From: a virus
Strand: one strand, 5' to 3'
Virus record (IMG/VR): IMGVR_UViG_3300020469_000011
Coordinates: 82,511 to 146,510 of that record
DNA length: 64,000 nucleotides
The notes beneath the pieces are model-generated. The model did not search any database and was not told the DNA's origin. It worked only from the letters and a program-made list of their open reading frames with translations. This document shows positions 9,849-62,362 of this stretch, piece by piece (position 1 is the stretch's first letter; every line of letters begins with the position of its first letter). The translations under genes were made by a program, and so were the position numbers.

Positions 9849-10664
9849 ATGTTATCTTTTAATCAGTATCTTACCGAAAAGAAAAAGAAAAAGCCTTGTT
9901 GGGATGGTTATAAACAAGTTGGCATGAAGATGAAGAACGGAAAAAAAGTTCCAAATTGTGTACCTGTCAATGAAGATTTTGATGTTGACCCAAATGATAA
10001 ATTAAAACCAGTACCCACTGTAGAAGAGATTACTAAAAAACATAATGTATCTACAGAAGAAGTTGAAAAGCAAATTAAAAAAGGTACTGATATAGAGAAA
10101 GAGCATACAGAAGATACCGATACTGCTAAACAAATTGCACATGCACATATAGATGAAGCATTAGACTACTATGAAAAATTAGCTGATTGTGTTGAAGAAG
10201 AGTTTTTAGATGAAATGTATACTAAGCCTGGATTAAGAGAAAAAATTAAAAATAGAATTAAGGCGGGTAGTAAAGGTGGTAAACCAGGACAATGGTCAGC
10301 CAGAAAGTCTCAGATGCTTGTACAGCAGTATGAAAAAGAAGGTGGTGGTTATAAATCTAAAGGAAGGTCAAAGAAGCAGAGAAACCTATCTAGATGGTCT
10401 AAAACAGATTGGAAAACGCATGACGATAAGCCATCAATACAGGGACAAAAACATGATGAAGTTGATGCATATCTTCCTAAAGCAGCAATTGCACACATGA
10501 AAAGAAAAGATAAAGAGAACGATACGAATTTATATTCTAAAATGACAAGTCAAAAAAGAAAAGCGGCTAAATCAAATGATCAACATGCCGATTATTCTGA
10601 TGATGTAAAGAAAGCAAGAAAAGCAGCAATCAAACATGCACATAGAAGTGTTAAGGGTAAGTAA
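9849..10664 (+). CDS. Capsid-targeted multi-module internal protein (polyprotein-like)
   Basis: Leader MLSFNQYLTE; modules CWDGYKQVGMK..GK.VPNCVP, G..IEKEHT....A..IA..H..E..DYY, and YTKPGLRE...GGKPGQWSARK, separated by VNE and LDE. Confidence 0.7.
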   Translation: MLSFNQYLTEKKKKKPCWDGYKQVGMKMKNGKKVPNCVPVNEDFDVDPNDKLKPVPTVEEITKKHNVSTEEVEKQIKKGTDIEKEHTEDTDTAKQIAHAHIDEALDYYEKLADCVEEEFLDEMYTKPGLREKIKNRIKAGSKGGKPGQWSARKSQMLVQQYEKEGGGYKSKGRSKKQRNLSRWSKTDWKTHDDKPSIQGQKHDEVDAYLPKAAIAHMKRKDKENDTNLYSKMTSQKRKAAKSNDQHADYSDDVKKARKAAIKHAHRSVKGK

Positions 10665-11911
10665 TGAAATCATTCAATCAATTTATAACTGAAAACAAAA
10701 TTTTAAATGAAGGTGGTAACGCACCATTTATTAATCGTGAAACTGGAGAAAAATTGGGCGATGCTCAAAAAATAGATTTAAATAAGGTAAACAGAACTAA
10801 ATTAGCTAAAAGTTTACAGCTATTGTTTGCTCAGTTAAATAAGCTTTATGAAAAGAAACATGGTGAAAAATTATGGAATGATTTTAGTGTAATAGAAACG
10901 GGTCATGCATTCAATGGTTCTTCTGAACATTTCTTTAATAAAAATATATCTGATGCTAAATTTAAAAAACACAAGCCAATGGTAGGTGATATAGATGTAA
11001 CTATACATAATGATGAAAAAGTAAAAATTCAAAAATTAAAACCTTTGTTCGATTTACTTTCTGAATTGGAAAACAAAAAAATAACAAATGAATTTGTATA
11101 CAAAGGACAAAATAAGAAGCAACAGCAAGGACATCAGATTAATGCTATCTTTCAATTTCAGAATCCAAAGATAAATGTACAAGTTGACTTTGAAGGTGTT
11201 CACTATACAGAAGATCATAAACCTACACCATTTGCAAAGTTTGCACACAATTCATCTTGGGATGATATTGAACAAGGAATGAAAGGTGTTGGTCATAAAC
11301 TGTTAATTCAGAATTTAGCAAGAGCATTATCAGAGATGAAAGATGTTGTAGTGTTAACTAAAACTTCTCCATCCGAACCACCAGAGGAGGTTAAAGTTTC
11401 TAAAGCAGCATCTTCAGATGCACCCACTAATTTAGCTTTCAGTGTTGATTTAGGAATAAGAGAAAAGTATGCTCCTGCTGTTGATTCAAAAGGCAAGCAA
11501 GTCTATGTCAATGGCAAGCCAGCATTTCGAGAATTGAAAACAGGAGACAGTAAGTATCACAAAGACATTGATGTGATTTACACAATGATCTTTAAGAAGA
11601 AACCTTCAGAGGATGGCGAGGATTTGAAAAAGTTTCACAGTTTCACTGGAACGTTGGAATTGCTCGAGTCGCATAAGGTAGAAGATGATGTCATTCGCAC
11701 CATGTTCAAGTCACTGATAGAAAAAAGTCTATTTGGTAAAAATGCACAAGGTTTTGAAAAAAATAATCCAGAAGGTGACAAAAAAATTAAAATGTTGATT
11801 GTAGATATGTTAGTTAAAAAGTTTCCATATCTAAATCCTATCTTAAATGGATATGAAGAAGAAATAAAAACCTATTATAATAATTATAAAAAGGTAAAGG
11901 TTGACGCATGA
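10664..11911 (+). CDS. Capsid-targeted Pol-beta-superfamily nucleotidyltransferase
   Basis: Leader MKSFNQFITE..ILNE; NGSS...GDIDV...VQVDF catalytic pattern (GS, DxD, third D). Confidence 0.7.
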   Translation: MKSFNQFITENKILNEGGNAPFINRETGEKLGDAQKIDLNKVNRTKLAKSLQLLFAQLNKLYEKKHGEKLWNDFSVIETGHAFNGSSEHFFNKNISDAKFKKHKPMVGDIDVTIHNDEKVKIQKLKPLFDLLSELENKKITNEFVYKGQNKKQQQGHQINAIFQFQNPKINVQVDFEGVHYTEDHKPTPFAKFAHNSSWDDIEQGMKGVGHKLLIQNLARALSEMKDVVVLTKTSPSEPPEEVKVSKAASSDAPTNLAFSVDLGIREKYAPAVDSKGKQVYVNGKPAFRELKTGDSKYHKDIDVIYTMIFKKKPSEDGEDLKKFHSFTGTLELLESHKVEDDVIRTMFKSLIEKSLFGKNAQGFEKNNPEGDKKIKMLIVDMLVKKFPYLNPILNGYEEEIKTYYNNYKKVKVDA

Positions 11912-13521
11912 TGTCTTTTAAAACATTTTCCCTTAGAGAAAATTATATTATTGAAGCCGCAGGTAATGCAATGCTTGATGTATCTATTACAAATGCAGAT
12001 AAAGCCTTCAAAAATAAAACAAAATTCTTTTACTATGTTGGAGATGATGAAAAATTATTAAGTGAAAAGGAATACTCAATAGAAGAAAAATATGACGGCG
12101 TGAAGCTTACCTTATTTCGTAATGGAAAAGATTTTGATTCTAAAAACTTTGAAAATAATTGGGTTATAGCCTACAAAAATAGAAAATTACATCCAAGTGA
12201 ATTTAAATCTACGTCTGCTGCAAATGTAAAACAAAAAGGTATTGGTGTTTCTCAGTATAAAATTATTGCAGATCATTTGAAAAAAATACATAAGAGTTTA
12301 GATTCAATACCAAAGAATACAGAATTTTTTGTTGAATTTTTAATGCAAAAATCTACCTTAACTAGAACATATGAAAATAAACATGGTGTTGTGTTAATAG
12401 GATATTCACATAATGCTAAAGTAGATCAAGAAGACGATTTTCGTTTCTATACAAAAGAAACTAAATTAAATCAAAGTTTAAATCAAGAATATGCTAAGTT
12501 ACTGAAATTAGATCTACCTCAAATATTATTTGAAGGAGGTGTTGGTTCTTTTGAAAATTTGAAAGAAGGTGCTTTAGATGATGAACTTAAAAAACTTCTA
12601 AGGAAAAATAAAACCAAAATTCAAGAATTTTACAAGTATAAAAAATGGGATGACTTATATGAATTAATCAAAACTATTTTTCTAGATGTGTCAAGTTTTT
12701 ATGGTGGTGTGATGGAAGGAGTTGTACTAAAAGATATTAAACAAAAAACAATGTACAAATTTCTCCAAACAGACCAACATGATAAAGAGTTTCGTCAGAA
12801 GATAAAACAACAATATAAAATGGATGAAGATAAAGAAAAGGAATATTATAAAACTCTAGATAAACTTGCTAAAGATATTTTGAGTAAATTAGATTTGAGC
12901 AAAGAACACTCTGAAATAATGAGTGATTTATCAACTGCTGTTTACAAGAAAAAATTACCAAGAAATTTACATACCAAGAGAAACGATCATCAAATAAAAG
13001 AAGATCTTCATTTAAAAGTAAAAGATGCATTTGAAAAAATGCTTAAAGGTTGGGGTGGTGTAGTAGGTAAATTTAGAATTGTTACTAAAGAACATGTAAA
13101 CATGATAGACTATGCTCTTAAAAAATACAAAGGTGTTTCTGTAATGCTTGTTGCAGGCTCTAGAGATATTATGTTAGTTCAAGAGAATATGAAAATTTTT
13201 AAAGAAATATTTAAAGACAAACCGGCAGAATTTTTTATAGCTAAGACCGGAAACATAATAAGATTAGAGCAACTTACTAGAAATCCTATTGTTGCTTATG
13301 TAGCTGGACCAGATAGAAAAGAAGATTATCAAAAACAAATTGAGGGTGCTAATAGCGATGCAGTTGTAGATGTTTATGATGGAGGAAAAAGAGATGAAAT
13401 TTCTGCATCAAAAGCAGAAGAAGCTTTGATGGCAAATGATGTACAATCATTAAGAAAAATTGTACATCCAGTTGCTCTTAAAAATATTGATAAATGGGAA
13501 AAATATTACAGTAAATTTTAA
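11908..13521 (+). CDS. Capsid-targeted ATP-dependent ligase-like domain fused to a HIGH-type cytidylyltransferase-like domain
   Basis: Ligase motifs EKYDG (I), FFVEF (III), MEGVVLK (IV), YKF (V); C-terminal GKFRIVTKEH, VAGPDR, ISASK; leader MSFKTFSLRE.YIIE. Confidence 0.65.
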   Translation: MMSFKTFSLRENYIIEAAGNAMLDVSITNADKAFKNKTKFFYYVGDDEKLLSEKEYSIEEKYDGVKLTLFRNGKDFDSKNFENNWVIAYKNRKLHPSEFKSTSAANVKQKGIGVSQYKIIADHLKKIHKSLDSIPKNTEFFVEFLMQKSTLTRTYENKHGVVLIGYSHNAKVDQEDDFRFYTKETKLNQSLNQEYAKLLKLDLPQILFEGGVGSFENLKEGALDDELKKLLRKNKTKIQEFYKYKKWDDLYELIKTIFLDVSSFYGGVMEGVVLKDIKQKTMYKFLQTDQHDKEFRQKIKQQYKMDEDKEKEYYKTLDKLAKDILSKLDLSKEHSEIMSDLSTAVYKKKLPRNLHTKRNDHQIKEDLHLKVKDAFEKMLKGWGGVVGKFRIVTKEHVNMIDYALKKYKGVSVMLVAGSRDIMLVQENMKIFKEIFKDKPAEFFIAKTGNIIRLEQLTRNPIVAYVAGPDRKEDYQKQIEGANSDAVVDVYDGGKRDEISASKAEEALMANDVQSLRKIVHPVALKNIDKWEKYYSKF

Positions 13522-13835
13522 TCAACTTGAGAAATTAATATATCATAATCCATAGTAATTTCAAATTGAAAGTTTTCATAAAAATTAAATTGTATAATTC
13601 CATCATCTAACTTCATGAGAAATAGAAAAGTATATTTGTTGAAATAAGTTCTTCTGTTTTCGCTTGCATATTTAAAAAAGTATTCATCAAATTCTGAATT
13701 GTCTATGCTATCGTAACCTTTCATTCTTATAACATTATCTTGATTAAAATATACATGAATTTCATTATCAACAAAATCTATCACATTAGCATTAGAAAAA
13801 TTAAATAGATGTTTATCAGATTCAACTAAAATCAT
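13518..13835 (-). CDS. Hypothetical protein
   Basis: 105 aa ORF with strong SD (GAGGAG) and a TATAAATA upstream. Confidence 0.65.
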   Translation of the reverse strand: MILVESDKHLFNFSNANVIDFVDNEIHVYFNQDNVIRMKGYDSIDNSEFDEYFFKYASENRRTYFNKYTFLFLMKLDDGIIQFNFYENFQFEITMDYDILISQVD

Positions 13836-13880
13836 AATGGTTTCTCCTCAACATGAGTAAAGTCAATTAAAAATTAATAA

Positions 13881-13903
13881 CTAAATATAGTTAAGTATTT
13901 ATA
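13881..13903. promoter_or_regulatory. Pair of oppositely oriented T4-type late promoters
   Basis: CTAAATA (+) 13881-13887 toward the fibre genes; TATAAATA (-) 13896-13903 toward the 13518..13835 gene. Confidence 0.55.
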
Positions 13904-13929
13904 TTCAAAAAATGAGGAAATAAAGATAT

Positions 13930-14763
13930 ATGGCAAGACTACAATCTATTCAAAAACCTACCACCCTGCTTACTTTAAAGTTCTCAAAAACAGAAGCAAA
14001 TGCATTTTCAGGTGCTGCCGGTGAAATTATATTAATTACAATAAATGGTATCATTCAAGGTGATGTTAGAATTTCAACAGGAAATCCTAACTATACGATG
14101 CCAGTATATCCTATAGGTTCTCTCGTTTATTACGCCGGACAGACTCCTCCAAATGGATATTTATTCTGCAATGGAGCAACAGTATCAAGTAGTCTATATC
14201 CAGAATTGTATAGTAAAATAGGAACAACTTGGGGAGGAGATAGTACAAATTTTGCTTTACCCAATTTTACAACAGATGGTGGAAGATTTATTAGAAATTT
14301 AAATCAACAAGGTGTTGGTAATTCAACATTTCCAGATTATTACTATACAAGTTATGATGATTATGGGACGTATAATAGATTTACTGCCAATCTACAGTTA
14401 GTAAATAGAACATTCGGACAGTTTCAATCTGATGCATATGGATATCATTCTCATGGCAAACCATCAAATTCAGAATATGCAGGAGATCATAGTCACAATT
14501 ACTATGGGTCTAGAAATGCAACAAATGGTGTGCAATTAGGTAGTGACACTGCTGGAGTTAATGGATATAGAGGAGTGTTTGGATATGGGTCTGCAGCAAC
14601 AACAGTTTCTTCCGGATATCATGTACATTATGGATGGTTGGGGTATGGACCAAATCAAAGTTCAACTTTACATAATACTGTTGATGCTGCTAATAGTTCT
14701 TTAAATAATCAAGGTGAGACAAGACCTGTAAATCATCCACTAATGTTCTGTATAAAATACTAA
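13930..14763 (+). CDS. Tail-collar-domain fibre protein 1
   Basis: PIGSLVYYAG..PPNGYLFCNG..VS...YPELY..IGTTWG....F.LP; HSH/HVH motifs; ETRP.N.....CIKY. Confidence 0.88.
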   Translation: MARLQSIQKPTTLLTLKFSKTEANAFSGAAGEIILITINGIIQGDVRISTGNPNYTMPVYPIGSLVYYAGQTPPNGYLFCNGATVSSSLYPELYSKIGTTWGGDSTNFALPNFTTDGGRFIRNLNQQGVGNSTFPDYYYTSYDDYGTYNRFTANLQLVNRTFGQFQSDAYGYHSHGKPSNSEYAGDHSHNYYGSRNATNGVQLGSDTAGVNGYRGVFGYGSAATTVSSGYHVHYGWLGYGPNQSSTLHNTVDAANSSLNNQGETRPVNHPLMFCIKY

Positions 14764-14776
14764 AGGATTATATAAA

Positions 14777-15595
14777 ATGCCGCTACAAGGAATTAGTTCT
14801 GGAGTTTTTAAATTTTCAACTACTACTCAAAATAGAGCAAGAACTTCCATACCAGGAACGATGGCTATTTCTGTAGATGATAATAATACTATAACAGGTG
14901 ATTTTAGAGTTCATGACGGACTTACTCCTGGAGGTATTTCAAATCCACCTCCTGGTACTGTCTCGCATATAATCTCAAAATATGATAGTAATTTTACAGA
15001 TAATATTTCAGAACCAGATGGTTGGTTTTTCTGTGATGGTAGAGAAGTTGTGATAGCAGAATATAATGCATTATATCAAGCGATTGGTACACATTGGAAT
15101 GAAGGAACCGTAACAAGTGGTTCATATAAAATACCTGATCTTAGAAATCATTATATAAGATGTACTACAGGCGCTGTTGGTCTTTCACAAAAACAAGATA
15201 GTGTTATTGAAAAACATTCTCATTGGATGTTATGGGATGGAGCAGGAAGTCATACTCATACATATACACCATATCAAGATGGTAATTATGCACCTAATGT
15301 GTATGCTTTATATATTAGACATACTAATGATGTTTCCGGATCAGATTCAGGTTATTATGATAATACTGGTATAAAGAATCAACCAGTATATAATACACCG
15401 GGAGCATATACATATCATTGGGGAGGCAGCTATGGAGGTCCTGGACCAACTTATATTACAATGGGCTATGGTTCATCTTTACCTGCTAATGGTAGTAGTG
15501 CTCTTGAACACCATCATCAAGTCTCTCTTACTAATGCAGGTAGTTCTGAAGTAGATTTATATCATGTTAAATTATCAACATTTATAAAGTATTAA
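14777..15595 (+). CDS. Tail-collar-domain fibre protein 2
   Basis: RVHDGLTPGG N-terminal motif; PDGWFFCDG....Y.ALY.AIG..W...IPDLR; HSH/HTH motifs; ends FIKY. Confidence 0.88.
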   Translation: MPLQGISSGVFKFSTTTQNRARTSIPGTMAISVDDNNTITGDFRVHDGLTPGGISNPPPGTVSHIISKYDSNFTDNISEPDGWFFCDGREVVIAEYNALYQAIGTHWNEGTVTSGSYKIPDLRNHYIRCTTGAVGLSQKQDSVIEKHSHWMLWDGAGSHTHTYTPYQDGNYAPNVYALYIRHTNDVSGSDSGYYDNTGIKNQPVYNTPGAYTYHWGGSYGGPGPTYITMGYGSSLPANGSSALEHHHQVSLTNAGSSEVDLYHVKLSTFIKY

Positions 15596-15597
15596 AA

Positions 15598-24532: not shown

Positions 24533-27049
24533 ATGTTTTATACTAATGTAGCACTTGTTGGTAATAAAATACACATGAGGTATATTGAAAATGGAATAAG
24601 AAAACAAAATGATTTTTCTTTCAGTCCTGAATTGTTTATAAAAAGTAAGAAAGGTAATTTTAGAGATCTATATAATAATTCCTATAAAAGTATAGAAGTA
24701 GAAAACGTAAAAACCGCCAAAGAAAAAGTTAAAAGTTCTTCTAATATTGAAGACTATACTATTTGTGGTAATGCAAAACCCGAATTTGAGTTTATTCATA
24801 GAAACTTTCCTGAAAACATATCCTTTGACTCCTCACAAATAAACATTGGTTATCTTGATATTGAGGTTTTTACAGACGGTGCTTTTCCTGAACCATCTGC
24901 CGCAAAATATCCAATCAATGCTATATCCTTTCGTATTCATGAAATGACACATGCTTTTGGTTTAACCTATGACAATGTTACCTATAAAAGCAAAAAAGAT
25001 GATGTAACTGTATATCTATTTGATACTGAAGAAAAATTATTAACTGAATTTATAAATTTTTGGAGTAAATGTGAATTAGATGTTATATCTGGTTGGAACT
25101 CTAATAGTTTTGATATTCCATACATTTGCAGAAGAATAGAAAATGTATTTGGTGAAAGGTATTTAAAAAGACTATCCCCATATTCAAAAATCTTTTCAAC
25201 AGAAAGAAAGAATGATTTTGGTAATAAAGAGATTGCATATAAAATTTATGGAATATCTCAAATAGACTATCTTGCAATCTACAAAAAATTTACATTTAAA
25301 AATCGTGAAAGCTATAAACTAGATTTTATTGCACAAGAAGAATTGGGTGAACGTAAAGAAGATGTATCTGATTATGATAATCTATTTGATTTGTATGAAA
25401 AAGACTTTGAACTTTTCATGGATTATAATATTAAAGATACTGAACTTGTAGAAAGATTAGATGATAGATTAAAGCTAATGGAAATAGCATTAACTCTGGC
25501 ATATTTTTCAAAAGTAAATTATGAAGATATCTTTAGTCCAATGAGGTATTGGGAAAACATTATTCAAAATTATCTTTATGAACATCAGATAGTTGTACCA
25601 ATTGAAAAGCCAGAAAATGAAAAGACTAAAAAGTTTGAAGGTGCGTATGTAAAAGATCCAATTGTAGGTAAACATGATTTCATGGTATCCTTTGACTTCA
25701 CTGCTCTGTATCCATATATTCTTCGTACATTTAATATTTCTCCAGAAACTATTCAAGGAATGCGATATGATCTAGATGTAGAATCTATATTAAATCAATC
25801 AATTGATTTATCTAGTGAATATGAAAAAGACATTACTGTAGCTGCAAATGGAGCCAGATTCACTCGCAAACACACTGGATTTATTCCTGCTCTTATTAAA
25901 AGAATGTTAGATTTGAGAGTTGATTCTAAAAAAGAAATGATTAAGACTCAGCAGAAAATTGAAGAAATGAAAAAGAGCGGTGAAAATCTAAATGATATTA
26001 AACTTTTAGAAAAGAAAACAGTTGCTTTATTTAATATGCAACTTGTAGCTAAAGTAGCTGCAAACTCTTTTTATGGAATTTGTGGATTAAAATATTTTCG
26101 TTTTTATGATATACGTTTAGCAGAAGCAGTAACTTATTCCGGTCAAGCAGCAAATCGTTTTGTAGAAAAGAAAGTAAATGAATATTTAAATAAATTACTA
26201 GAGACAGAAAATAAAGATTATACAATCTATATGGATACAGATTCTTGTTATTTTGACCTAAGTGGAATGGTGAATAAATTTGTTCCTAATAAAACAAAAC
26301 AAGAACAGAACGAGTTTGTCAAGAAAGTGGGTTATTCAAAACTCACAGAATGTATTGATAATGCTATTGATAGTTTCAACAAATATTTAAATGTTCATGA
26401 TGCTATTCTTAATATGAAAATGGAAGCCGTTGGTGGTGGAGTTTTTATAGCAAAGAAAAAGTATGTAATGTCAATAGTCCATATGGAAGGTGTAGACTAT
26501 GCAAAACCAAAATTAAAAATGACAGGTGTTGAAGCAGTAAAATCTTCAACTCCTGCTCCAGCTAGAAAAGCTTTGACAGACTGTGCGAATATTCTTGTCA
26601 CAGGAACAGAAGATGAACTAATTGAATATGTCACAAAATTTCGTAAAGAATGGAATGGTCTATCTCCAGATCAAATTGGATTACCAACTTCAGTGAATGG
26701 TATATTTAAGTATCACACAAAAGATAATAGATATGCACTTGGCTGTCCTATACATGTGAGAGCAGCAATTAATTATAATTATTGGATATCCGAATATAAA
26801 ATTGATATGCATTATTCTGATATTAAAGATGGTTCAAAAGCAAAGTATGTTTTTCTTATAAACCAAAACTACACTAGAGAAAATGTCATAGCGTTTCCAT
26901 CTAAGCTACCGAAAGAACTTGACTTACACTCCAAAATAGATTATAATGCTCAGTTAGAAAGATCATTTCTTTCTCCTCTTAAAATTATGCTTGAGCCAAC
27001 TGGTTGGAATTATGAGAAAAAAGTAAATTTAATGGATTTATTTTCTTAA
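24533..27049 (+). CDS. gp43: Family B DNA polymerase, T4 gp43-like
   Basis: ExoI DIEV, ExoII GWNS..FDIPY, ExoIII YNIKD; DFTALYP, K..ANSFYG, YMDTDS, KKKY. Confidence 0.97.
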   Translation: MFYTNVALVGNKIHMRYIENGIRKQNDFSFSPELFIKSKKGNFRDLYNNSYKSIEVENVKTAKEKVKSSSNIEDYTICGNAKPEFEFIHRNFPENISFDSSQINIGYLDIEVFTDGAFPEPSAAKYPINAISFRIHEMTHAFGLTYDNVTYKSKKDDVTVYLFDTEEKLLTEFINFWSKCELDVISGWNSNSFDIPYICRRIENVFGERYLKRLSPYSKIFSTERKNDFGNKEIAYKIYGISQIDYLAIYKKFTFKNRESYKLDFIAQEELGERKEDVSDYDNLFDLYEKDFELFMDYNIKDTELVERLDDRLKLMEIALTLAYFSKVNYEDIFSPMRYWENIIQNYLYEHQIVVPIEKPENEKTKKFEGAYVKDPIVGKHDFMVSFDFTALYPYILRTFNISPETIQGMRYDLDVESILNQSIDLSSEYEKDITVAANGARFTRKHTGFIPALIKRMLDLRVDSKKEMIKTQQKIEEMKKSGENLNDIKLLEKKTVALFNMQLVAKVAANSFYGICGLKYFRFYDIRLAEAVTYSGQAANRFVEKKVNEYLNKLLETENKDYTIYMDTDSCYFDLSGMVNKFVPNKTKQEQNEFVKKVGYSKLTECIDNAIDSFNKYLNVHDAILNMKMEAVGGGVFIAKKKYVMSIVHMEGVDYAKPKLKMTGVEAVKSSTPAPARKALTDCANILVTGTEDELIEYVTKFRKEWNGLSPDQIGLPTSVNGIFKYHTKDNRYALGCPIHVRAAINYNYWISEYKIDMHYSDIKDGSKAKYVFLINQNYTRENVIAFPSKLPKELDLHSKIDYNAQLERSFLSPLKIMLEPTGWNYEKKVNLMDLFS

Positions 27050-30457: not shown

Positions 30458-30982
30458 ATGAAAAAAACATACAATCAATTTGTAGAAAGTATTCTTTTAG
30501 AAAAAAAGAAAAAGAATAAAAAAGAACCAGATAGTGATCTTTTTTTAGATAATGAAGAAGAAGAGGAAGAAGAACCTACTGATGAAGAAGAATCTACTGA
30601 TGAAGAAGAATCTGAAGATACTGAAGAGGATACTCCAGAAGAAGGTGAGGAAGATGAGCCAGAACCAAAAGAGGATGAAAAAGAATACGATCCTGATGAC
30701 GAAGAAAAAGTTAAGACTTCAAAACAAGATACTGAGAAAAAAGCTTTAAAAAACGTATCAACTGACGTAGAAGATAGTGATATGGAAAGTGATGAAATTG
30801 AAGACAAAATTGATGATGAAATAGAGTATTTAGAAACTGATAAAGAAAGAAATGAAAAATTATCTTATAAAGATAAAAAAGAAGAAGAAGAAAAACAGAA
30901 AAAAGAAAAACAAGATAAAGAAGATAATAAAACTAAAATCGTTATCAATCCTAACATCACAGAACATTTAAATAACTGGTAA
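30458..30982 (+). CDS. Highly acidic capsid-targeted protein (prohead core/scaffold-like)
   Basis: Leader MKKTYNQFVE.ILLE; E/D-rich; ends KIVINPNITE. Confidence 0.6.
   Translation: MKKTYNQFVESILLEKKKKNKKEPDSDLFLDNEEEEEEEPTDEEESTDEEESEDTEEDTPEEGEEDEPEPKEDEKEYDPDDEEKVKTSKQDTEKKALKNVSTDVEDSDMESDEIEDKIDDEIEYLETDKERNEKLSYKDKKEEEEKQKKEKQDKEDNKTKIVINPNITEHLNNW
30576..30613 (+). repeat. 18-bp tandem duplication within the CDS
   Basis: CTACTGATGAAGAAGAAT x2, encoding TDEEES x2. Confidence 0.8.
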
Positions 30983-41602: not shown

Positions 41603-42601
41603 CTACTCCTTTTTAATTTTATCAATATATTTTTTAACTATATTTGGTTTCATTTGATGTTCTTTCTCATCAATTATCTGAACATTAAGACCTTTAACAA
41701 TTTCTCTGAATTCAGAATTCGTTACCTTTGCGTTTTCTAATGCTTCTTCAATATAATAAACTTGTAATATTTTAAAGTTAGATAAAACTATTTCATCATA
41801 GTCTAAATATTTGGAACCTGATGTCCATTTTTTACTCTGCATATTTGGCCAGCGCATAATAAGTTCATTAAAAACTTTGCGATATTCTTTTTTACTTTTA
41901 ATAATCCTTTCAGTTCCAGCAACATATTGTCTTATATATTTCTGTTTAACATCGCCTGAAATATCATAAGGAGTATAATCATTTTCTTTATCTCCATATT
42001 CATCACGAAGTTTTTTGAGTAAATTTTGTTTAAATATAACTAGTTTTTGAAGTAAAAGTTTGTATTGATAAAATTTCATTTCTTTTTCGGCAGATGTCAT
42101 TTTATTTTTTTTTGATTTCCCATCTAAAAAGAATTCGATATATGATGATGACATAATTGAACTATCACTATCTCCACTTATATCAATAACTCTCACTCCT
42201 TTTTTATCTGGCTTGCTCATGATGTCGCCAGCTTGACCCATTAGTGCAGTTCCTTCTAAAATAGTAATAACACCACCCCCATCATCCCAAATTCCATACA
42301 ACATTGTTCCAATATTATCAACAGTAAAAGCTGAAATTTGTTTTGTTCTTTTATTTTGAAGTTTTTTAAGTTTATCTAAACCTTTTACTCCAGAGGAATG
42401 TGCAGCTATTAAACGCACTGGTGTTGAAACTCTTTCTATAAATTTTTGATCAAGAATAAGATGAAAACTTTTATCTTTTTCATCTTGAAATATATATTCT
42501 TTGTCATCAGCCAGCAATCCATCTGCTTCCATGAATATATGGTCAAATAAAGACCGCTGCCATTGAACCTCTTCGTTTACTACTTCTTTAAATGACTTCA
42601 T
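41603..42601 (-). CDS. Capsid-targeted protein, possibly ADP-ribosyltransferase-like
   Basis: Leader MKSFKEVVNE; AAHSS...QISAFT...YDEIVL order resembles the ART H/S/E triad. Confidence 0.45.
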   Translation of the reverse strand: MKSFKEVVNEEVQWQRSLFDHIFMEADGLLADDKEYIFQDEKDKSFHLILDQKFIERVSTPVRLIAAHSSGVKGLDKLKKLQNKRTKQISAFTVDNIGTMLYGIWDDGGGVITILEGTALMGQAGDIMSKPDKKGVRVIDISGDSDSSIMSSSYIEFFLDGKSKKNKMTSAEKEMKFYQYKLLLQKLVIFKQNLLKKLRDEYGDKENDYTPYDISGDVKQKYIRQYVAGTERIIKSKKEYRKVFNELIMRWPNMQSKKWTSGSKYLDYDEIVLSNFKILQVYYIEEALENAKVTNSEFREIVKGLNVQIIDEKEHQMKPNIVKKYIDKIKKE

Positions 42602-44208
42602 TTATTTTTTAGTTGAATTTTTTCTGCATCAGAAAGTTGATTGTTTTTATCTAATACACTTACAAGTGCGTTTGATACCTTTGCTGAGAGTCTATTTGTA
42701 TGAACAAGATCAAGTATACGGTTCTTTAACATTCTTATAGCTCTATCATCTCTCAAACTCTGAAGAGTTTTTGAACCTTTTGACTTAGTTTCACCTGTGA
42801 ATACTTTATCAAAGATTGCTGGAAAAGCCTCTTGAACTTCTGCAGGTATCTTATATTGTTTCTTTGACTCAATAGGTATATCATAATTTGTTAACATGTG
42901 AACATTGATTGGCTCATCTTTAATCACATCAATAATAGTTTTTGAACTTGGATTTAAATGAAGAATTGCTGAAAGATTTTGCGGTCTTCTTTGAACTAAG
43001 TTGTTCAAGTCCTCTTGAGAAAATTTGATTTCAGAATGATTGATTAAAAAATCACGAACTTCTTTTGGACTGATATTTCTGGCAAGAGAAAGCATGAGTG
43101 ATTTATGGTCAACATCAATCATTTGGTCATAATAGTCTAAGTCTTTGTCCAATATTTCTTTTTCAACAATCGGTGGTAACTTTTGTGTCATCTTCTTCTT
43201 GTCAAGTAATGTCTTCTTATCCTTATCTTTTTTTGTCAGTATACGAACAAGGTCAGGATATTTTTCACGGGGTATCTCACTGATGTTCTTACCTCTGCGA
43301 ATATGAGTTTCTAACTCACCTTCTCTCTTTGCAAATTTTGTTGAACTATGTTTCTTATTATATTCTACATCTTTATTCGGAATAATTTTAACAACCTTAT
43401 AACCTTTGCGACTAAAAAACACGGCTTGTCTTGGTTCATTTTCATGAACTACACCTAATCCAGGATCTTCAACAAGGTCATAATAGAATTGCTTACCTGG
43501 TGCTCGACGAAGAATTGTTGCCCATAAAGTAGGCTTTGGTACATATTTCTTGATTACTGGATAAGATTCTTCTTCAGTTTTTTCAAACAGTTCAGACAAT
43601 TCATCCCAACTTTTCGTAACTAAAAATCCGGACATTCGTGTAACATTCCATAATTGACTTGCGACACGGCGAGTTGTTGCATTTTTTCTTGCATATTTTT
43701 CAATAGCACTAAAGTAACTTCTTGCCAATACTGAATCAAATTGCTTACCATGTTTCTTTTTCATTAAGTCAACAATATCGTGCCTTAGTTTAGGTAGGTC
43801 TGAATTTAAGTCACTTGTTTTATATGCAGCAACATTCAAAGTTTTACATTCTGGTGTTTTTTGAATCAAAGCGATCCAAGGTTTTTCTCCCGCAAATGGC
43901 ACACGAAAAACTTGCTCACCAGATTCTGAAGGTGGGGGGTACTCTTTATACATGTCTAACAAACTATATGTGTAGATGCCCCATGGCGTCATGTATTTTG
44001 ATTTGGTGTTCAAAAGAACTACAGGTGAATCTGACCTTTCATCATCTTTTTCTTTCTTTGTGTTCGTTTCGAAGTTTTTAGGATCTGTAATAAAAGTTGC
44101 ATAGTATCCAGGCTTATTGTATTTCTCAAGAGCATAATATGGTGCTTGTTTTGGATTCTGCTTTGGATTTTTTCTTGCTTCTGTGATAAACGAATGAAAA
44201 GATTTCAT
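42598..44208 (-). CDS. Capsid-targeted protein of unknown function
   Basis: Leader MKSFHSFITEA; TP.GIY.Y, PFAG, D.G.GVVH.NEP.QAVF motifs. Confidence 0.6.
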   Translation of the reverse strand: MKSFHSFITEARKNPKQNPKQAPYYALEKYNKPGYYATFITDPKNFETNTKKEKDDERSDSPVVLLNTKSKYMTPWGIYTYSLLDMYKEYPPPSESGEQVFRVPFAGEKPWIALIQKTPECKTLNVAAYKTSDLNSDLPKLRHDIVDLMKKKHGKQFDSVLARSYFSAIEKYARKNATTRRVASQLWNVTRMSGFLVTKSWDELSELFEKTEEESYPVIKKYVPKPTLWATILRRAPGKQFYYDLVEDPGLGVVHENEPRQAVFFSRKGYKVVKIIPNKDVEYNKKHSSTKFAKREGELETHIRRGKNISEIPREKYPDLVRILTKKDKDKKTLLDKKKMTQKLPPIVEKEILDKDLDYYDQMIDVDHKSLMLSLARNISPKEVRDFLINHSEIKFSQEDLNNLVQRRPQNLSAILHLNPSSKTIIDVIKDEPINVHMLTNYDIPIESKKQYKIPAEVQEAFPAIFDKVFTGETKSKGSKTLQSLRDDRAIRMLKNRILDLVHTNRLSAKVSNALVSVLDKNNQLSDAEKIQLKNK

Positions 44209-50510: not shown

Positions 50511-51224
50511 TTACACCGTGAATCCATAATTTTTATTAGTATATTTTTTTAAATAATCATTTTTTTCTATCCATTTAATCCACTCATAATCTGCTGTTTT
50601 ATTATATTCATCAAATGATGAATTTATTGAATTCATTTTTTTTCTTACACCTGACCTCATATGACTAATTGAAGTATTATCAAGAATAATATTTTTTAAT
50701 CCTAAAGAATTTGATATATTTGAACTAATAAAATCAACCCAACCATATTTGTGTGTTGGAATTGAAGGATGTAATTTTTTCAAAATTTCTACATTATAAA
50801 AAGGACAAATATTTTCAATAAAATAAACTTCACGATAATTTTCTCCTATCTTAAACATAACAGGATATGGACACCCATCATCAATAATTGATGAGTGTAT
50901 TATACCAGTATTTTTGTTAAAATGTTTTAAAGAAGATTCAATTAAATTGTTAGATATATTAAAAATATCGTTATTAAAAATACCAACAAATAAATTTTTA
51001 TCATCCTTATGTTTATCAATTATCCAATCATAAAAACCACCCACGTTTATATTTTTAATTCCTAAATTAATAGTGAACTCATTAGAAAAAGATTCTTCTA
51101 AAATGTCTGAATTTTCTAAAACATATAAATTATTTGTTTGTTTTTTTAAAGATTGAAAAACTAAACTTGTAAAATCTTTTGAATTGTGAGATAGTATATA
51201 AATTATATAATCATTTTTCTCCAT
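50511..51224 (-). CDS. Putative GT-A glycosyltransferase
   Basis: ILSHN..D; IFNND; YGWVD; H.RS; located in the sugar cluster. Confidence 0.55.
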
Positions 51225-57556: not shown

Positions 57557-57593
57557 TAATTATTCTCCTGAAAATTATTTAAATTATTATATA

Positions 57594-57845
57594 TTATTTA
57601 TACACTGTTTTTCTTATTGAAAAAAGAAAATTATTAAGTTTTCTTAATACTTCACCATATTTTTCTATAAATTCTAGTTCTATTTCATCTTCAGTTTTCT
57701 TTGAACGCAATCTCTTATTTAACATGGTATAACTGCGAATTAAGAATATTTGAAATTTCTGAAAAGTTTCGTTATCCATACAGTTTATTTTTATTTTTTT
57801 ATTTATACCATCTCTGTCATATTTATCTTTTTTAAATATGAACAT
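57594..57845 (-). CDS. Hypothetical protein
   Basis: 83 aa ORF. Confidence 0.4.
   Translation of the reverse strand: MFIFKKDKYDRDGINKKIKINCMDNETFQKFQIFLIRSYTMLNKRLRSKKTEDEIELEFIEKYGEVLRKLNNFLFSIRKTVYK
57595..57602 (-). promoter_or_regulatory. T4-type late promoter
   Basis: TATAAATA on the minus strand about 40 nt upstream of the Gly-rich gene. Confidence 0.65.
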
Positions 57846-57905
57846 ATGATAAATACAAATTAATTATATCAAACAATAATTTTTCAATTTATAGGAACAC
57901 TTCTC

Positions 57906-60323
57906 ATGATTTCTTTTTCTAATTTTTGCACTAATTTTTTAATTGAATTTAAAGAATCGCCGTCAATGATGGCAATGAAAGAAAATGCTATTGATACCGT
58001 TAAACATGAAAAATACAGTTATAAACCTTCTGGTTCTTTATCAGATCCAAAAGGAGAGATTGTTCCTTTAATGACTCCAAAACAATTTTATGAAATAGAA
58101 GAAAAACAAGGTAGATTAAAAAAAGGTTTTAAACAGACCATTACAGAAAACTATTGGGATGATCTATCTTTAATGAAATATGGTCCTGATAATGATTACA
58201 AAACTTGGACTGAAAATATAACTCTTAGAACACGTATAGTAAAGAATCTAAAAGAATATTCTCCTATAGCAATAGAAAATAAACTAAAAGATTTTAATGA
58301 GCTAGTAAAAACATCATTTAATCAATACGCTAGAGCATACAATCAACAATCAGAAAAAGCTTTTCGTGAGAAAAACGTAGAAGCTAAAAGTAAAAATTTT
58401 AAAGATGATTTATTTAAAATATTAGAAGATAAAAAATTATTAGATAATGATATTAAAAAAGCATATACAAGTGGACTTAAAAAAGAAATGCTTAATGATA
58501 AGTTTATACAGTCTTTAAAAAAAGCAATAACAACTGAAGCATCTTTACTAAAATCTGTTTATGCAGAACCCGCCGTGAATAAACCACTTTTACATCCTTC
58601 AGCCATGATGGATAATCTTTTTGTAGAAAATGATGATATATTAATAAGTTATCTATTAGGTAAAAAAGTTCCTTTTGATAATATAGTAAAAAACATTTAT
58701 AAAAAAGATGGTGCGAGATTAACCAAAAAAGAAATTACAGCACTATTTGATGAAGTTAACAGAAAAATAAATGCTCTTGTTGATAAAGGTGAAAAGAAAG
58801 AAGATGCTATTGAAAAAGTTATGAACATGTTTGCCAAAGAACCTGAATCAAAAGAAGGTGAATTAAAATATTTCATGTATGACGGTGCTTCAAAGTCTAC
58901 TCAAAAATATAAACAAATGAGTGTAGATGAATTAAAAAGAAGATGGAAAAGTTTTAACAAGACTACGTCTGCTCTTGACAGAATGTTTGCAAAAACAACA
59001 TCACATGAAATGTATCAATATGATCCAGAAAAATCATTATCTCAAAATCAAAAGATGATGAAATCAATGGGTGCATTAGGTAAACAAAAAGAAATATATG
59101 ATTTCACTTTACCTGCATATAAAGGTTTAGTGTATATGGAAAGACCTTGGAAAGATATTTACGGTAAACAACAATCACCAGGTCTAGCTATTGTTAACAC
59201 ATGTCCTTCTGCAGCTTTATGTAAAACTTTCTGTTATGCAGTAAAAGGATTTTATACAATGTATTCAGCACCTTCTATTAGTGCAGCGCAAGTTTTAACT
59301 TTTTTAATTAATTATCCCGATCAATTTAAAAAGAAAACATTTGATTACTTAAATAAATTAAAATCAAAGTCTAAAAAACAAGTAATTATTCGTTGGCATG
59401 ATGCTGGTGATTTCTTTTCTAGAAGTTACTTTAACATGATTATGGATATAGCAAAAGGAACACCAGACATTCTTCACTATGCATATACAAAACGTGTTGA
59501 AATGATTCATGAAGTTGTAACAGGTTCTGATTTTAAAGGAGGTAAAGTATCTGGACTATCTAATATACCAGATAACTTTATATTTAATTTATCATATGGT
59601 GGTAAGTATGATAAAAAGATTCAAAAAATTCCACAATTAGCTGATTTCAAATTTTCAAAAGTAATTGATTTGTCTATACCTGTTTTTGAAAACTTTCAAG
59701 GTATTGCAAAGAAACAAATATTTAATGAAAATATGGTTAGTAAAGCTCATAAATTAGGAGAAGAGAATCATAATTCTATCATTGTTAAAAATGAATCTGA
59801 AACTATAAAATCAATGTCTTTAAATGGTAAAGTTCATAAGAATGTGAAAGTTAATCGCAAAGTTTTAACCTTTAATTATATTCCAAAACTAGCTGTATTA
59901 CCAGCTTCCACTATAGAATCTTTCAAAGAAAAAAATAGTGAGTTACTTAATAATTTTAAAGGTATTGAAAATGAACCCGTTTTTCATAAAATGTTTGATA
60001 AGGCTAAAGGACATAAACATGATAGAGTTGTCTTTGAAGAAAATGATTTAAAAAGTATGTTAACTTCTAAACAATTAAAAGAACTTGAAGATCATTATCC
60101 TAATCTATATAAAACATACTTACCTAAAGAAGTTCAAGAACTTTATAAGACAGCTATTAAAAAGTATTATGGTCTAGATAAAGATATACTAACTTATGAT
60201 GAAATGATACAGACTTCAGAAACATCTTCTAAAAATAAATATCATGTTTTAGTTTCTACTAATGATGGTGATGTTTCTGCACAAAGAAAAGATATACACG
60301 GAACACTTTTGGTTATACATTAA
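57906..60323 (+). CDS. Large capsid-targeted protein with a GP88-like Cys-cluster domain
   Basis: Leader MISFSNF...FLIE; TCPSAALCKTFCYA; IRWHDAGDFFS..Y; YAYTK; late-type GATAAATA at 57848. Confidence 0.65.
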   Translation: MISFSNFCTNFLIEFKESPSMMAMKENAIDTVKHEKYSYKPSGSLSDPKGEIVPLMTPKQFYEIEEKQGRLKKGFKQTITENYWDDLSLMKYGPDNDYKTWTENITLRTRIVKNLKEYSPIAIENKLKDFNELVKTSFNQYARAYNQQSEKAFREKNVEAKSKNFKDDLFKILEDKKLLDNDIKKAYTSGLKKEMLNDKFIQSLKKAITTEASLLKSVYAEPAVNKPLLHPSAMMDNLFVENDDILISYLLGKKVPFDNIVKNIYKKDGARLTKKEITALFDEVNRKINALVDKGEKKEDAIEKVMNMFAKEPESKEGELKYFMYDGASKSTQKYKQMSVDELKRRWKSFNKTTSALDRMFAKTTSHEMYQYDPEKSLSQNQKMMKSMGALGKQKEIYDFTLPAYKGLVYMERPWKDIYGKQQSPGLAIVNTCPSAALCKTFCYAVKGFYTMYSAPSISAAQVLTFLINYPDQFKKKTFDYLNKLKSKSKKQVIIRWHDAGDFFSRSYFNMIMDIAKGTPDILHYAYTKRVEMIHEVVTGSDFKGGKVSGLSNIPDNFIFNLSYGGKYDKKIQKIPQLADFKFSKVIDLSIPVFENFQGIAKKQIFNENMVSKAHKLGEENHNSIIVKNESETIKSMSLNGKVHKNVKVNRKVLTFNYIPKLAVLPASTIESFKEKNSELLNNFKGIENEPVFHKMFDKAKGHKHDRVVFEENDLKSMLTSKQLKELEDHYPNLYKTYLPKEVQELYKTAIKKYYGLDKDILTYDEMIQTSETSSKNKYHVLVSTNDGDVSAQRKDIHGTLLVIH

Positions 60324-60327
60324 AAAA

Positions 60328-61434
60328 ATGATAACATTTAATGAATATTTAAAAGAAGAAAAACTTCCAACAAATCTTAAACCTTCTTTATTTTTAGGTG
60401 ATAAAGAAACTTGGGAAAGTTTAGAAGAGTATAAGAATGATCTTCATCAAGGAATTGATAATTTAAGAAATGAACTTATTACTAAGGATCATAAGAGAGT
60501 GTTACATAATTTAGTAAATGATCCAGATAAGAACGCATTGAGAAACACTTCTTTTAAAAAAGTTTCTGAACTTGGTAATACATTTGTTAATAAGGTGAAC
60601 AAAGATTTTGGTGAAGCAATTGGTCCTATAAAGATCATCACTGACTCTACATATATGTCTTGGATTAATAATTATAAAAAAATTTATATTCCTAAAAAGT
60701 CAAATGCACCTTTTTTAGACTATACAATTACAGACAAAGATAATATAGAACATAAAATATCCGCCAAGTCCGCAAAAGCTTCCGGAAATACAATAAAGAC
60801 ACCTAATATAATTACAACTTTAGAAAATGCGTTAAAGAAAAAAAACAGTAAATATATTTTAGAAAGACTTTTTATTAATAAAAGTAGTAAATATAATAAA
60901 GAATATGAGTTACTTGTAAAAATATTTGATATTACTGAAAAAGAAAAAGCACCTGTTGGATATATGAAAGTTGCTGCTGAATTAGATAATGCGTACGGTG
61001 ACAAAAAATATCATGATGTAATACAAAAATTAGATAATAATTTTTTTAATAAATTACCCACAGGTAGAAAAGCCAATTTTTCGGAAATAAAAACGCCATC
61101 TGGTACAAGTGCCGAAGATCTAATGAAACAATCTGATAAAATTATTAAAAGATTTTCTTCACCACCGTATCCAATAAATATTGCATTAAAACTTCTTATT
61201 AACATTGTGTTTAAAGATGAAATTTATTTTGCAAAATTCGGTTTAAATTCAGACGGCTCAACAGTTTGGGAATTGAGAGGAAGAAGATCTAATTATTCTA
61301 ATTTATATGTACAAAATAAAAGTGGTACAACTCTCTATACAAAACTGTATATGGATGCTAAAGGCGCAAGAGGAGATGAAAAATTAGGTTTAAGACTTGA
61401 ATCTACAAATTTAGAAAAAGAATTTATTACATGA
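60328..61434 (+). CDS. Capsid-targeted PD-(D/E)xK nuclease-like protein
   Basis: Start moved to the ATG at 60328 (MITFNEYLKE); DFGE..GP; P..SN.P..DY.......ISAKS. Confidence 0.55.
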   Translation: MITFNEYLKEEKLPTNLKPSLFLGDKETWESLEEYKNDLHQGIDNLRNELITKDHKRVLHNLVNDPDKNALRNTSFKKVSELGNTFVNKVNKDFGEAIGPIKIITDSTYMSWINNYKKIYIPKKSNAPFLDYTITDKDNIEHKISAKSAKASGNTIKTPNIITTLENALKKKNSKYILERLFINKSSKYNKEYELLVKIFDITEKEKAPVGYMKVAAELDNAYGDKKYHDVIQKLDNNFFNKLPTGRKANFSEIKTPSGTSAEDLMKQSDKIIKRFSSPPYPINIALKLLINIVFKDEIYFAKFGLNSDGSTVWELRGRRSNYSNLYVQNKSGTTLYTKLYMDAKGARGDEKLGLRLESTNLEKEFIT

Positions 61435-61748
61435 AAAAATTTAAAGAATTTATTTCAGAGAATACCAAAAGAATACCGAGAAAAAAAGGACAACGTAGAA
61501 ACAGTCCAAATCATTCTGACCTATATACAGATGAGAATCCAAAAGGAACCATACATGGTTTAAAGTTTGCTACAGTTGATGATGCAGAAAAAAGTGTTAA
61601 TAAAATTGAAAATTCAAGTAGATCACATGCTCATAAAATTCAAGCAGCAATTGCTATGGAACAAAGAGCAAGAGTTATGAAAAAAGTATCAGCAGCAAAT
61701 GTTTATAGAAAATTCATAAACAAAATGAAAAAGAAATCAAACAAATGA
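61431..61748 (+). CDS. Small basic capsid-targeted conserved protein
   Basis: Leader MKKFKEFISE; DLYTDENPKGTIHGL.F....A..SV; MEQRA. Confidence 0.7.
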   Translation: MKKFKEFISENTKRIPRKKGQRRNSPNHSDLYTDENPKGTIHGLKFATVDDAEKSVNKIENSSRSHAHKIQAAIAMEQRARVMKKVSAANVYRKFINKMKKKSNK

Positions 61749-62362
61749 AAACTTTTAATCAGTTTCTAATAGAAAAGAAAAACTCTTCCATTGAGCTTCT
61801 TGGTTGGCCAAGAGCAGATGAATTTACAGGATTAAAAATGAAATACACTGAAAAATTGAAAATTGCAAAAGAAAATTCTAAAAAAGTTGGAGATGGATCT
61901 ACAAGAACAGTTTTTGAAATTGATTTTAAAAATAAACCTACAGTAATGAAAATAGCAAAAAACGAAAAGGGTTTAAGACAAAATTTATCTGAAGTTAATG
62001 TATATAAAAAATATAATAATAATCCACCATTCATGTTACCTATGATTGATTGGGATGATAATGATGATGCTGATACGGCATGGATTCATGTGATGAAATC
62101 GGCTAAATTATCTGAAGGAATTTTTTATCGTTATTTTGATGTTACGTTTGAACAGTTTAGTAAAGCATTATCAGATTATATCAATAAAAATAAAAATGAT
62201 GACCTTAATAGATTGAATATAGTTAAATTCATAAAATTTGTTAAAGATAACGATTTAATGTTGGGTGAGTACAGACAAAAAAGTAATTGGGGTTCTTGGA
62301 AAGAAAAGCCAGTTATAATTGATGCTGGAGTTACCAGAACAAATCAGGAGTTAACTTTATAA
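61745..62362 (+). CDS. Capsid-targeted protein-kinase-like protein
   Basis: Leader MKTFNQFLIE; GDGSTRTV P-loop, VMKIA, QN.SE, NWG, IIDAG. Confidence 0.65.
   Translation: MKTFNQFLIEKKNSSIELLGWPRADEFTGLKMKYTEKLKIAKENSKKVGDGSTRTVFEIDFKNKPTVMKIAKNEKGLRQNLSEVNVYKKYNNNPPFMLPMIDWDDNDDADTAWIHVMKSAKLSEGIFYRYFDVTFEQFSKALSDYINKNKNDDLNRLNIVKFIKFVKDNDLMLGEYRQKSNWGSWKEKPVIIDAGVTRTNQELTL

What the first reader, a model, noticed from the sequence alone, without database searches (positions are those of the whole stretch)
9849..62362. Family of at least 10 unrelated genes sharing a T4 capsid-targeting leader: a candidate virion-packaged, injected enzyme arsenal
Seen: N-termini MLSFNQYLTE (9849), MKSFNQFITE (10664), MSFKTFSLRE (11908), MKKTYNQFVE (30458), MKSFKEVVNE (42601-), MKSFHSFITE (44208-), MISFSNFCTNFLIE (57906), MITFNEYLKE (60328), MKKFKEFISE (61431) and MKTFNQFLIE (61745). 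They fall in four loci, with late-type (G/T/A)ATAAATA boxes upstream, and none of the replication or nucleotide-metabolism genes has the leader. Established: T4 internal proteins IPII/IPIII begin MKTYQEFIAE, a capsid-targeting sequence cleaved after Glu by the gp21 protease, and are injected with the DNA. Inference: this phage uses the tag as a modular address label to deliver enzyme-sized cargo (NTase, ligase, kinase, nuclease, Cys-cluster enzyme, possible ARTs) at infection, probably for host takeover or anti-defence.
Basis: partly seen in the sequence, partly recalled or inferred. Interest (0 to 1): 0.9.

Follow-up and report, generated by a model that had tools for sequence, protein, structure and literature searches.

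The report
T4-type head-loading tags, marine phage
An uncultured marine relative of phage T4 starts at least 13 unrelated genes, several of them enzyme-like, with the short peptide T4 uses to load proteins into its head and then cut off, so it probably packs an unusually large protein kit in its particle, though nothing has been measured.

Summary
All ten N-termini are at the stated places, and the 146.5-kb record holds three more outside the window. A leader pattern hits 11 gene starts, 0 of 890 internal Met and 0.03 per shuffle. The conserved positions (aromatic 4 and 7, aliphatic 8, Glu 10) are those shown by experiment to drive targeting and cleavage of the T4 capsid targeting sequence (CTS). 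Conservation is at protein level, and 12 of 13 cargos are basic like T4 internal proteins. The same leader heads at least 34 unrelated cargo families in over 119 viral contigs but occurs only twice in 596 Gb of prokaryote genomes. Four of five large contigs carrying it encode the T4 prohead protease. In the family of gene 10664-11911, 46 of 47 N-terminal extensions end in Glu with Leu/Ile at P3, just before a core that leaderless homologues start with. That points to a removable propeptide. Cargo calls are only partly supported: RNA-ligase/nucleotidyltransferase-type pair, kinase fold, weak ADP-ribosyltransferase-like fold; no nuclease. Late boxes are well placed at only one of four window loci. 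The head module is missing from this fragment, and packaging is untested. This scan has reported similar CTS expansions on other DNA.

The parts
9849..10664 (+). Leader gene P1, 271 aa, pI 9.4. Leader is codons 1-10, followed by a Lys run. Mosaic of small phage modules (DUF5661, phrog_17747).
   Evidence: shared short modules seen as depth peaks
10664..11911 (+). Leader gene P2, 415 aa, pI 9.0. The 16-residue extension has two L/I-x-E sites (ending at residues 10 and 16) before a conserved Gly-Gly-Asn core start. Carries a Pol-beta-type GS...DxD motif.
11908..13521 (+). Leader gene P3, 537 aa, pI 9.2. RNA-ligase-like N-terminal half (KxDG) plus cytidylyltransferase-like C-terminal half. Extension of about 21 residues with sites ending at residues 11 and 16. 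Start overlaps the P2 stop.
30458..30982 (+). Leader gene P4, 174 aa, very acidic (pI 4.2), Asp/Glu-rich and probably disordered. Aromatic positions shifted by one residue, site ending at residue 15. Lies in the replication region.
41603..42601 (-). Leader gene P5, 332 aa, pI 8.9. Member of a widespread unannotated family in which most members carry the leader. Confident model with a weak ADP-ribosyltransferase-superfamily resemblance.
42598..44208 (-). Leader gene P6, 536 aa, pI 9.5. Translationally coupled to P5. No family or fold assignment.
57848..57855 (+). Late-type box GATAAATA, 51 nt upstream of the P7 start. It heads the P7-P10 operon.
57906..60323 (+). Leader gene P7, 805 aa, pI 9.3. 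Extended leader with its site ending at residue 14 (T4 IPI-like spacing). GP88 domain (PF17338) with a Cys cluster.
60328..61434 (+). Leader gene P8, 368 aa, pI 9.3. No family assignment.
61431..61748 (+). Leader gene P9, 105 aa, pI 10.5. Small basic protein (weak phrog_727).
61745..62362 (+). Leader gene P10, 205 aa, pI 9.2. Minimal protein-kinase-like fold. The leader is a low-confidence N-terminal helix outside the fold. All 20 homologues found that keep their N-terminus carry the leader.

Best explanation
The shared N-terminus is a homologue of the T4 capsid targeting sequence (CTS). It is an N-terminal propeptide of 10-21 residues. Its aromatic residues at positions 4 and 7 would dock the protein onto the scaffolding core while the prohead assembles. 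Its L/I/V-x-Glu end would then be cut by the gp21-type prohead protease, leaving the mostly basic mature protein inside the head with the DNA, to be ejected into the next host cell.

This phage has attached the tag to at least 13 genes. They include an RNA-ligase/nucleotidyltransferase pair that is leaderless in other phages, a kinase-fold protein and a possibly ART-like protein.

Shown here: the motif, its statistics, its modularity, the protease-type junction, the co-occurrence with gp21 in other contigs, and the basic cargo.

Inferred: docking, cleavage, packaging, ejection and any role in host takeover or counter-defence.
For: Match to T4:
- T4 ipII and ipIII start with the published CTS, and ipI starts with a near-identical heptad followed by a longer spacer ending I-T-E (PMC8442874).
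- Mutagenesis places targeting at residues 4 and 7 and processing at residues 8 and 10 (PMC9026906). These are the positions conserved here.

Specificity:
- 11 gene starts against 0 of 890 internal Met.
- At least 119 viral contigs against 2 matches in 596 Gb of prokaryote genomes.
- All 123 matches in viral contigs are ORF starts, heading 34 unrelated cargo clusters.
- 4 of 5 large leader-bearing contigs encode Peptidase_S77 (gp21) next to gp67- and gp22-like genes.

Propeptide junction:
- P2 family: 47 of 52 homologues have a 7-23-residue extension. P1 is Glu in 46 of 47 and P3 is Leu/Ile in 45 of 47. Five homologues start directly at the core. The Vibrio phage Va1 homologue also starts at the core.
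- P3 family: 18 of 18 close members have a site ending at residue 15 or 16. The CP220 and Va1 homologues lack the extension.

Cargo and context:
- Cargos are basic in 11 of 12 scored against 49 of 167 other genes (Fisher p 2.7e-5). T4 internal proteins have pI 8.9-9.5.
- The leader is the low-confidence N-terminal segment in both models.
- Loci A and D lie beside tail-fibre genes, and D has a well-placed late box.
Against: - No head, portal, tail-tube or protease gene is present in this 68%-complete record. The protease is inferred from T4-likeness (gp43 40-42% identical to cyanomyophage gp43).
- There are no proteomic, cleavage or expression data for this phage or for any leader protein found here.
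- Well-placed late boxes occur at only 1 of 4 window loci and 3 of 6 loci in the record.
- P4 sits in the replication module, and P5-P6 sit beside sugar-metabolism-type genes.
- The Glu and Leu/Ile before the P2 core could partly be core residues.
- One leader (P5) has Val instead of an aromatic residue at position 7.
Confidence: 0.7

Rival explanations
1. The leader does target proteins to the prohead, but most tagged proteins are assembly-core or filler components that are degraded or serve as DNA counter-ions. They are not injected effectors acting in the next host.
For: - P4 is a disordered, acidic, Asp/Glu-rich protein, and the two small proteins outside the window are 46 and 70 aa.
- T4 core proteins are also cut by gp21 (PMC9026906).
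- Several cargos have no enzyme signature.
Against: - P2, P3, P10 and perhaps P5 have enzyme-type folds or motifs.
- P2 and P3 homologues in other phages work without any leader.
- Only one or two cleavage-type sites sit at the N-terminus, as in T4 internal proteins, which survive maturation.
Confidence: 0.15
2. The shared N-terminus is another kind of signal, for example a translation-efficiency start, a docking peptide for a non-capsid complex or a stability tag. It only resembles the T4 CTS by convergence.
For: - AT-rich Lys-rich starts are common in highly expressed phage genes.
- Half of the loci lack a well-placed late box.
- The protease gene is not seen in this record.
Against: - Conservation falls on the same four residues that are functional in T4, with synonymous codon variation.
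- The signal ends at protease-type sites placed exactly at the core boundary.
- It is confined to viral contigs, and the large ones carry gp21.
Confidence: 0.1
3. The similarity is a DNA-level recombination cassette (shared promoter, ribosome site and start) that shuffles genes. The peptide itself has no function.
For: - T-even internal-protein loci are recombination hot spots (Repoila et al. 1994, as cited in PMC9026906).
- One 31-nt stretch is 87% identical between two leaders.
Against: - Upstream DNA is not conserved.
- Ser, Ile and Leu codons differ among the leaders.
Confidence: 0.03

Closest known systems
[quoted passage not shown]
   Same: - The N-terminal peptide matches at residues 1, 2, 4, 7, 8 and 10, with both the short (IPII/IPIII) and the extended (IPI) spacing.
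- It ends in L/I-x-Glu.
- Cargos are basic and unrelated to each other.
- The genes are scattered in several loci.
   Different: - 13 or more tagged genes in two thirds of a genome, against 3 in T4 and 3-4 in two other marine T4-like contigs.
- Cargos reach 805 aa and include enzyme-type proteins that are leaderless in other phages.
- Packaging is unproven here.
T4 Alt, a head-packaged ADP-ribosyltransferase processed by gp21 (PMC9503650, PMC9026906)
   Same: It is an enzyme carried in the head, cut by the prohead protease and injected with the DNA. P5 gives weak structural matches to ART-superfamily proteins.
   Different: - Alt is not reported to carry the IPII/IPIII-type CTS.
- The ART assignment of P5 is below any safe threshold (Z 4.5-5.8).
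- No sequence similarity to Alt was tested or seen.
Propeptide-bearing ejection proteins of giant phages (phiKZ, SPN3US) and MuF-fused or polyvalent effectors (PMC5694885, PMC7411985, PMC9503650)
   Same: Many head-internal proteins, enzymes included, are loaded into the capsid and trimmed after Glu by a T4-related prohead protease.
   Different: Those systems use long propeptides or fusion to a structural domain. They do not use a transferable 10-residue tag of T4 type.

Membership tests
T4-type CTS-bearing head-internal proteins | The peptide sits at the very N-terminus, starting at Met1. | tested here: met
   13 of 13 are at gene starts; none of 890 internal Met matches.
T4-type CTS-bearing head-internal proteins | Aromatic residues at positions 4 and 7 (targeting determinants in T4 IPIII). 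| tested here: met
   - 11 of 13 match exactly.
- P4 is shifted by one residue.
- P5 has Val at position 7.
(determinants from PMC9026906)
T4-type CTS-bearing head-internal proteins | Aliphatic-x-Glu processing site at the end of the leader (residues 8-10, or later as in IPI). | tested here: met
   - All 13 have such a site within residues 8-16.
- In the P2 and P3 families the site sits at the boundary to the conserved core.
T4-type CTS-bearing head-internal proteins | The genome encodes a gp21-type prohead protease and a scaffold core. | tested here: inconclusive
   - Not found in this 68%-complete record, which also lacks capsid, portal and tail-tube genes.
- Present in 4 of 5 large contigs carrying the same leader.
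T4-type CTS-bearing head-internal proteins | Late transcription. | tested here: inconclusive
   NATAAATA boxes lie 46-51 nt upstream at 3 of 6 loci. At the other three loci boxes are only distant or internal. No expression data.
T4-type CTS-bearing head-internal proteins | The protein is present in the mature head with the leader removed, and is ejected on infection. | not testable with these tools
   Needs virion proteomics or a packaging assay.
RNA ligase family PF09414 plus cytidylyltransferase-like PF01467 (for 11908-13521) | Match to the family models; KxDG nucleotidyl-lysine motif. | tested here: inconclusive
   - The window protein itself gives no Pfam hit above threshold.
- Homologues 55% identical reach PF09414 (30.3 bits, cut-off 27), and homologues 31-34% identical reach PF01467.
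- The KxDG motif is visible.
Protein kinase-like fold (for 61745-62362) | Bilobal kinase fold with the conserved Lys, Glu and the Asp of the DFG-type motif. | tested here: met
   - Model pLDDT 83.
- Foldseek matches many kinases (best E 1e-6, probability 1.00, TM about 0.45).
- Invariant Lys69, Glu83 and Asp193.
- The catalytic-loop Asp was not verified, so activity is open.
ADP-ribosyltransferase superfamily (for 41603-42601) | ART fold with a catalytic triad. | tested here: inconclusive
   - Foldseek found nothing significant.
- VIA-align: Tpt1 Z 5.8 (rmsd 3.5, 90 aligned), DarT Z 4.6, CteC Z 4.5, DarT1 Z 4.5.
- Invariant His68 and Glu270.
- All below a safe threshold.

The most novel reading that the evidence does not exclude
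Marine T4-like phages use the CTS as a freely transferable address label. This lineage has used it to convert ordinary cytoplasmic enzymes into pre-made cargo delivered with the DNA: an RNA-ligase/nucleotidyltransferase repair pair, a kinase-fold protein and an ART-like protein. The cargo could act, for example, against tRNA-cutting defences before any phage gene is expressed. Cleavage at the core boundary may also serve as zymogen-type activation, keeping the enzymes silent in the producing cell.
Probability: 0.35. Interest if true: 0.8.

Novelty: new variant of a known kind. Interest (0 to 1): 0.6.

Why it matters
If the tag works as in T4, a ten-residue motif predicts the virion-delivered protein set of uncultured T4-like phages, which are abundant ocean viruses, from sequence alone.

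It would also show that capsid cargo is not limited to small DNA-binding inhibitors. It can include RNA-repair-type and signalling-type enzymes recruited simply by adding the tag.

The P2 family junction gives a sequence-only way to place propeptide cleavage sites: a variable extension, then L/I-x-Glu, then a core with which leaderless homologues begin.

The same leader sits on a 104-residue protein in 135 cultured cyanomyophage records, all annotated hypothetical. The idea is therefore directly testable in laboratory phages.

Tried and rejected
Searches that returned nothing:
- Megablast of locus A against cultured phages: no match.
- Close relatives in IMG/VR from single proteins: none.
- PDB sequence searches for P2, P3, P6 and P7: nothing usable.
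- ESM Atlas for P5 and P6: no usable hit.
- NCBIfam for eight cargos: nothing.
- Foldseek for P5: nothing significant.

Ideas tested and dropped:
- My guess from the sequence that the 156-aa cargo outside the window is ParB-like: not supported by Pfam.
- P2 as a PolyA_pol (CCA-adding) family member: rejected. In the 638-aa homologue that domain is a separate C-terminal fusion, residues 434 onward, while the P2-like part is residues 45-317.
- DNA-repeat or recombination-cassette origin of the leader: rejected on codon variation.

Literature:
- No paper in the held library describes CTS-type leaders outside the T-even group.
- The KVP40 genome paper is not held, so prior description elsewhere cannot be excluded.

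Tool and data limits:
- One search was a mistyped reference.
Full report
**What the DNA is**

The window is bases 82511-146510 of a 146.5-kb linear IMG/VR record that is estimated to be 68% complete.
- GC content is about 30%.
- Its DNA polymerase (24533-27049) is 40-42% identical to gp43 of cyanomyophages.
- Tail-fibre and baseplate-type genes flank the first locus.
- The record lacks the T4 capsid, prohead protease, portal and tail-tube families. That contiguous structural block therefore lies in the missing third.
- Locus 9500-13600 occurs with 0-1 differences in contigs of marine metagenomes from three studies, some possibly the source sample. Longer assemblies exist. The phage is marine and the genes are not assembly artefacts.

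**The observation**

- The gene at 11908 begins Met-Met-Ser-Phe. Its start overlaps the stop of the preceding gene.
- 60328 is the second ATG of its ORF, 5 nt after the previous stop.
- Three more leader genes lie elsewhere in the record, at 12700-12912(-), 12909-13049(-) and 50672-51142(-). That makes 13 genes in six loci.
- A pattern for the leader hits 11 gene starts, none of 890 internal Met and 12 of 5680 Met in all six frames. The twelfth hit is 60328. Shuffled N-termini average 0.03 hits.
- Ser, Ile and Leu codons differ among the leaders and the upstream DNA is unrelated. Selection therefore acts on the peptide.

**Comparison with T4**

I read the T4 genes directly. ipII and ipIII start with the published ten-residue CTS. 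ipI starts with a near-identical heptad followed by a longer spacer that ends Ile-Thr-Glu. The published CTS is given in PMC8442874.

The review PMC9026906 reports that targeting depends mainly on residues 4 and 7 and processing on residues 8 and 10. Here position 4 is Phe/Tyr, 7 is Phe/Tyr (Val once), 8 is Ile/Leu/Val and 10 is Glu. Four leaders have the extended IPI-like spacing, with the aliphatic-x-Glu site ending at residues 13-15.

Twelve of the 13 cargos have pI 8.9-10.5. Eleven of 12 scored are basic, against 49 of 167 other genes (Fisher p 2.7e-5). The T4 internal proteins have pI 8.9-9.5.

**Distribution**

- All 123 matches start ORFs.
- Of the 119 matches with cargo long enough to cluster, the cargos fall into 34 unrelated clusters once the leader is removed.
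- The same pattern occurs only twice in 596 Gb of prokaryote genomes, both times on MAG contigs.
- Of five large leader-bearing contigs, four encode Peptidase_S77 (gp21), next to gp67- and gp22-like genes.
- Two of these contigs, read whole, have 4 and 3 leader genes. T4 has 3. This record has 13 in two thirds of a genome.
- A 104-residue leader protein is present in 135 cultured cyanomyophage records, always annotated hypothetical. In S-SCSM1 it lies between virion-protein genes next to the large terminase gene.

**Evidence that the leader is a removable, transferable propeptide**

P2 family (gene 10664-11911):
- Of the 53 homologues found, 52 share a core that begins Gly-Gly-Asn.
- Five start at that core. 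So does the homologue in Vibrio phage Va1.
- 47 carry an extension of 7-23 residues.
- The residue before the core is Glu in 46 of 47, and the residue two before it is Leu/Ile in 45 of 47. That is the gp21 consensus.
- The Campylobacter phage CP220 homologue has a different 11-residue extension that also ends Ile-Leu-Glu.

P3 family (gene 11908-13521):
- All 18 close members have the Phe-x-x-Phe leader and a site ending at residue 15 or 16.
- The CP220 and Va1 homologues begin at the core.

P10 family (gene 61745-62362) and P5 family (gene 41603-42601):
- In the P10 family all 20 homologues found that keep their N-terminus carry the leader.
- About 58-70 of 81 representatives of the P5 family carry it.
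- In both structure models the leader is a low-confidence N-terminal segment outside the fold.

**Cargo**

- P3: homologues reach the RNA_ligase and cytidylyltransferase-like Pfam models. One adds a P-loop kinase.
- P2: keeps a GS...DxD nucleotidyltransferase-type motif. In relatives it is fused to a CCA-adding head domain or to a P-loop kinase. In Va1 it sits near a tRNA nucleotidyltransferase gene. By association, P2 and P3 look like an RNA (perhaps tRNA) repair pair. This is inference.
- P10: has a protein-kinase-like fold.
- P5: folds confidently (pLDDT 85.5) but matches only weakly. Four ART-superfamily proteins are among the top twelve VIA-align rows (Z 4.5-5.8). This is a hint only.
- P7: has a GP88 domain with a Cys cluster.
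- P1 and the 70-aa protein outside the window carry domains of unknown function.
- P4: an acidic, Asp/Glu-rich protein.
- P6, P8 and P9, together with the 46-aa and 156-aa proteins encoded outside the window, remain unassigned.
- No nuclease was found.

**Promoters**

NATAAATA boxes lie 46-51 nt upstream of three leader operons: P7-P10 in the window and two outside it. For P1-P3, P4 and P6-P5 the nearest boxes are 190-360 nt upstream, inside other genes. Late expression is therefore plausible but not established.

**Verdict**

The most likely reading (about 0.7) is that this is the T4 CTS system, conserved in a distant marine T4-like phage and expanded to 13 or more cargos, several of them enzyme-like.
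- Packaging, cleavage and ejection are inferred.
- The principle is known from T4, and reviews already suggest it as a general route in T4-like phages.
- The scale, the enzyme cargos and the recruitment of otherwise leaderless enzymes are the variant.
- I found no paper describing this outside the T-evens in the held library.
- This scan has already reported similar expansions on other genomes, so the finding is one more case, not a first.

Noticed in passing
window 9897-9964 and 10251-10320 (inside gene 9849-10664): In marine metagenome contigs, two short stretches show several-fold higher summed depth and many partial matches from other contigs. They code for a Cys-Trp-x-Gly-Tyr...Cys module and a Gly-Lys-Pro-Gly-Gln-Trp-Ser-Ala-Arg module. 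These are small modules shared by many different phage genes, some of which also carry the leader.
   Followed up: partly
window 11971 (internal ATG of gene 11908-13521): An in-frame Met lies at residue 22, just in front of the conserved core with which leaderless homologues begin. An AGGT sits 7 nt upstream of it. A second, leaderless cytoplasmic isoform is conceivable.
   Followed up: no
L004:2995-4161 (Campylobacter phage CP220 gp100): The CP220 homologue of gene 10664-11911 has a different 11-residue N-terminal extension ending Ile-Leu-Glu before the same core. Campylobacter T4-like phages may use their own version of the tag.
   Followed up: no
L008:375-689 and 135 cultured cyanomyophage records (e.g. 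L146:1501-1821): A 104-residue protein with the exact leader is conserved across cultured Synechococcus myophages and is annotated only as hypothetical. In S-SCSM1 it lies between virion-protein genes next to terL.
   Followed up: partly
window 30458-30982: The only acidic leader protein (pI 4.2, long Glu/Asp runs) sits in the replication module. It might be a charge-balancing or core-type head component, not an effector.
   Followed up: no
L149:800-829 and L150:1518-1547: These are the only two matches of the leader pattern in prokaryote genome collections. Both lie on MAG contigs, one labelled Methanobacteriaceae, and are probably phage DNA binned into MAGs.
   Followed up: no
proteins P0047 and P0048 (homologues of gene 10664-11911): These homologues begin Met-Gly-Gly-Asn and then repeat Glu-Gly-Gly-Asn 13-16 residues later, as if the core start had been duplicated at the N-terminus.
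   Followed up: no
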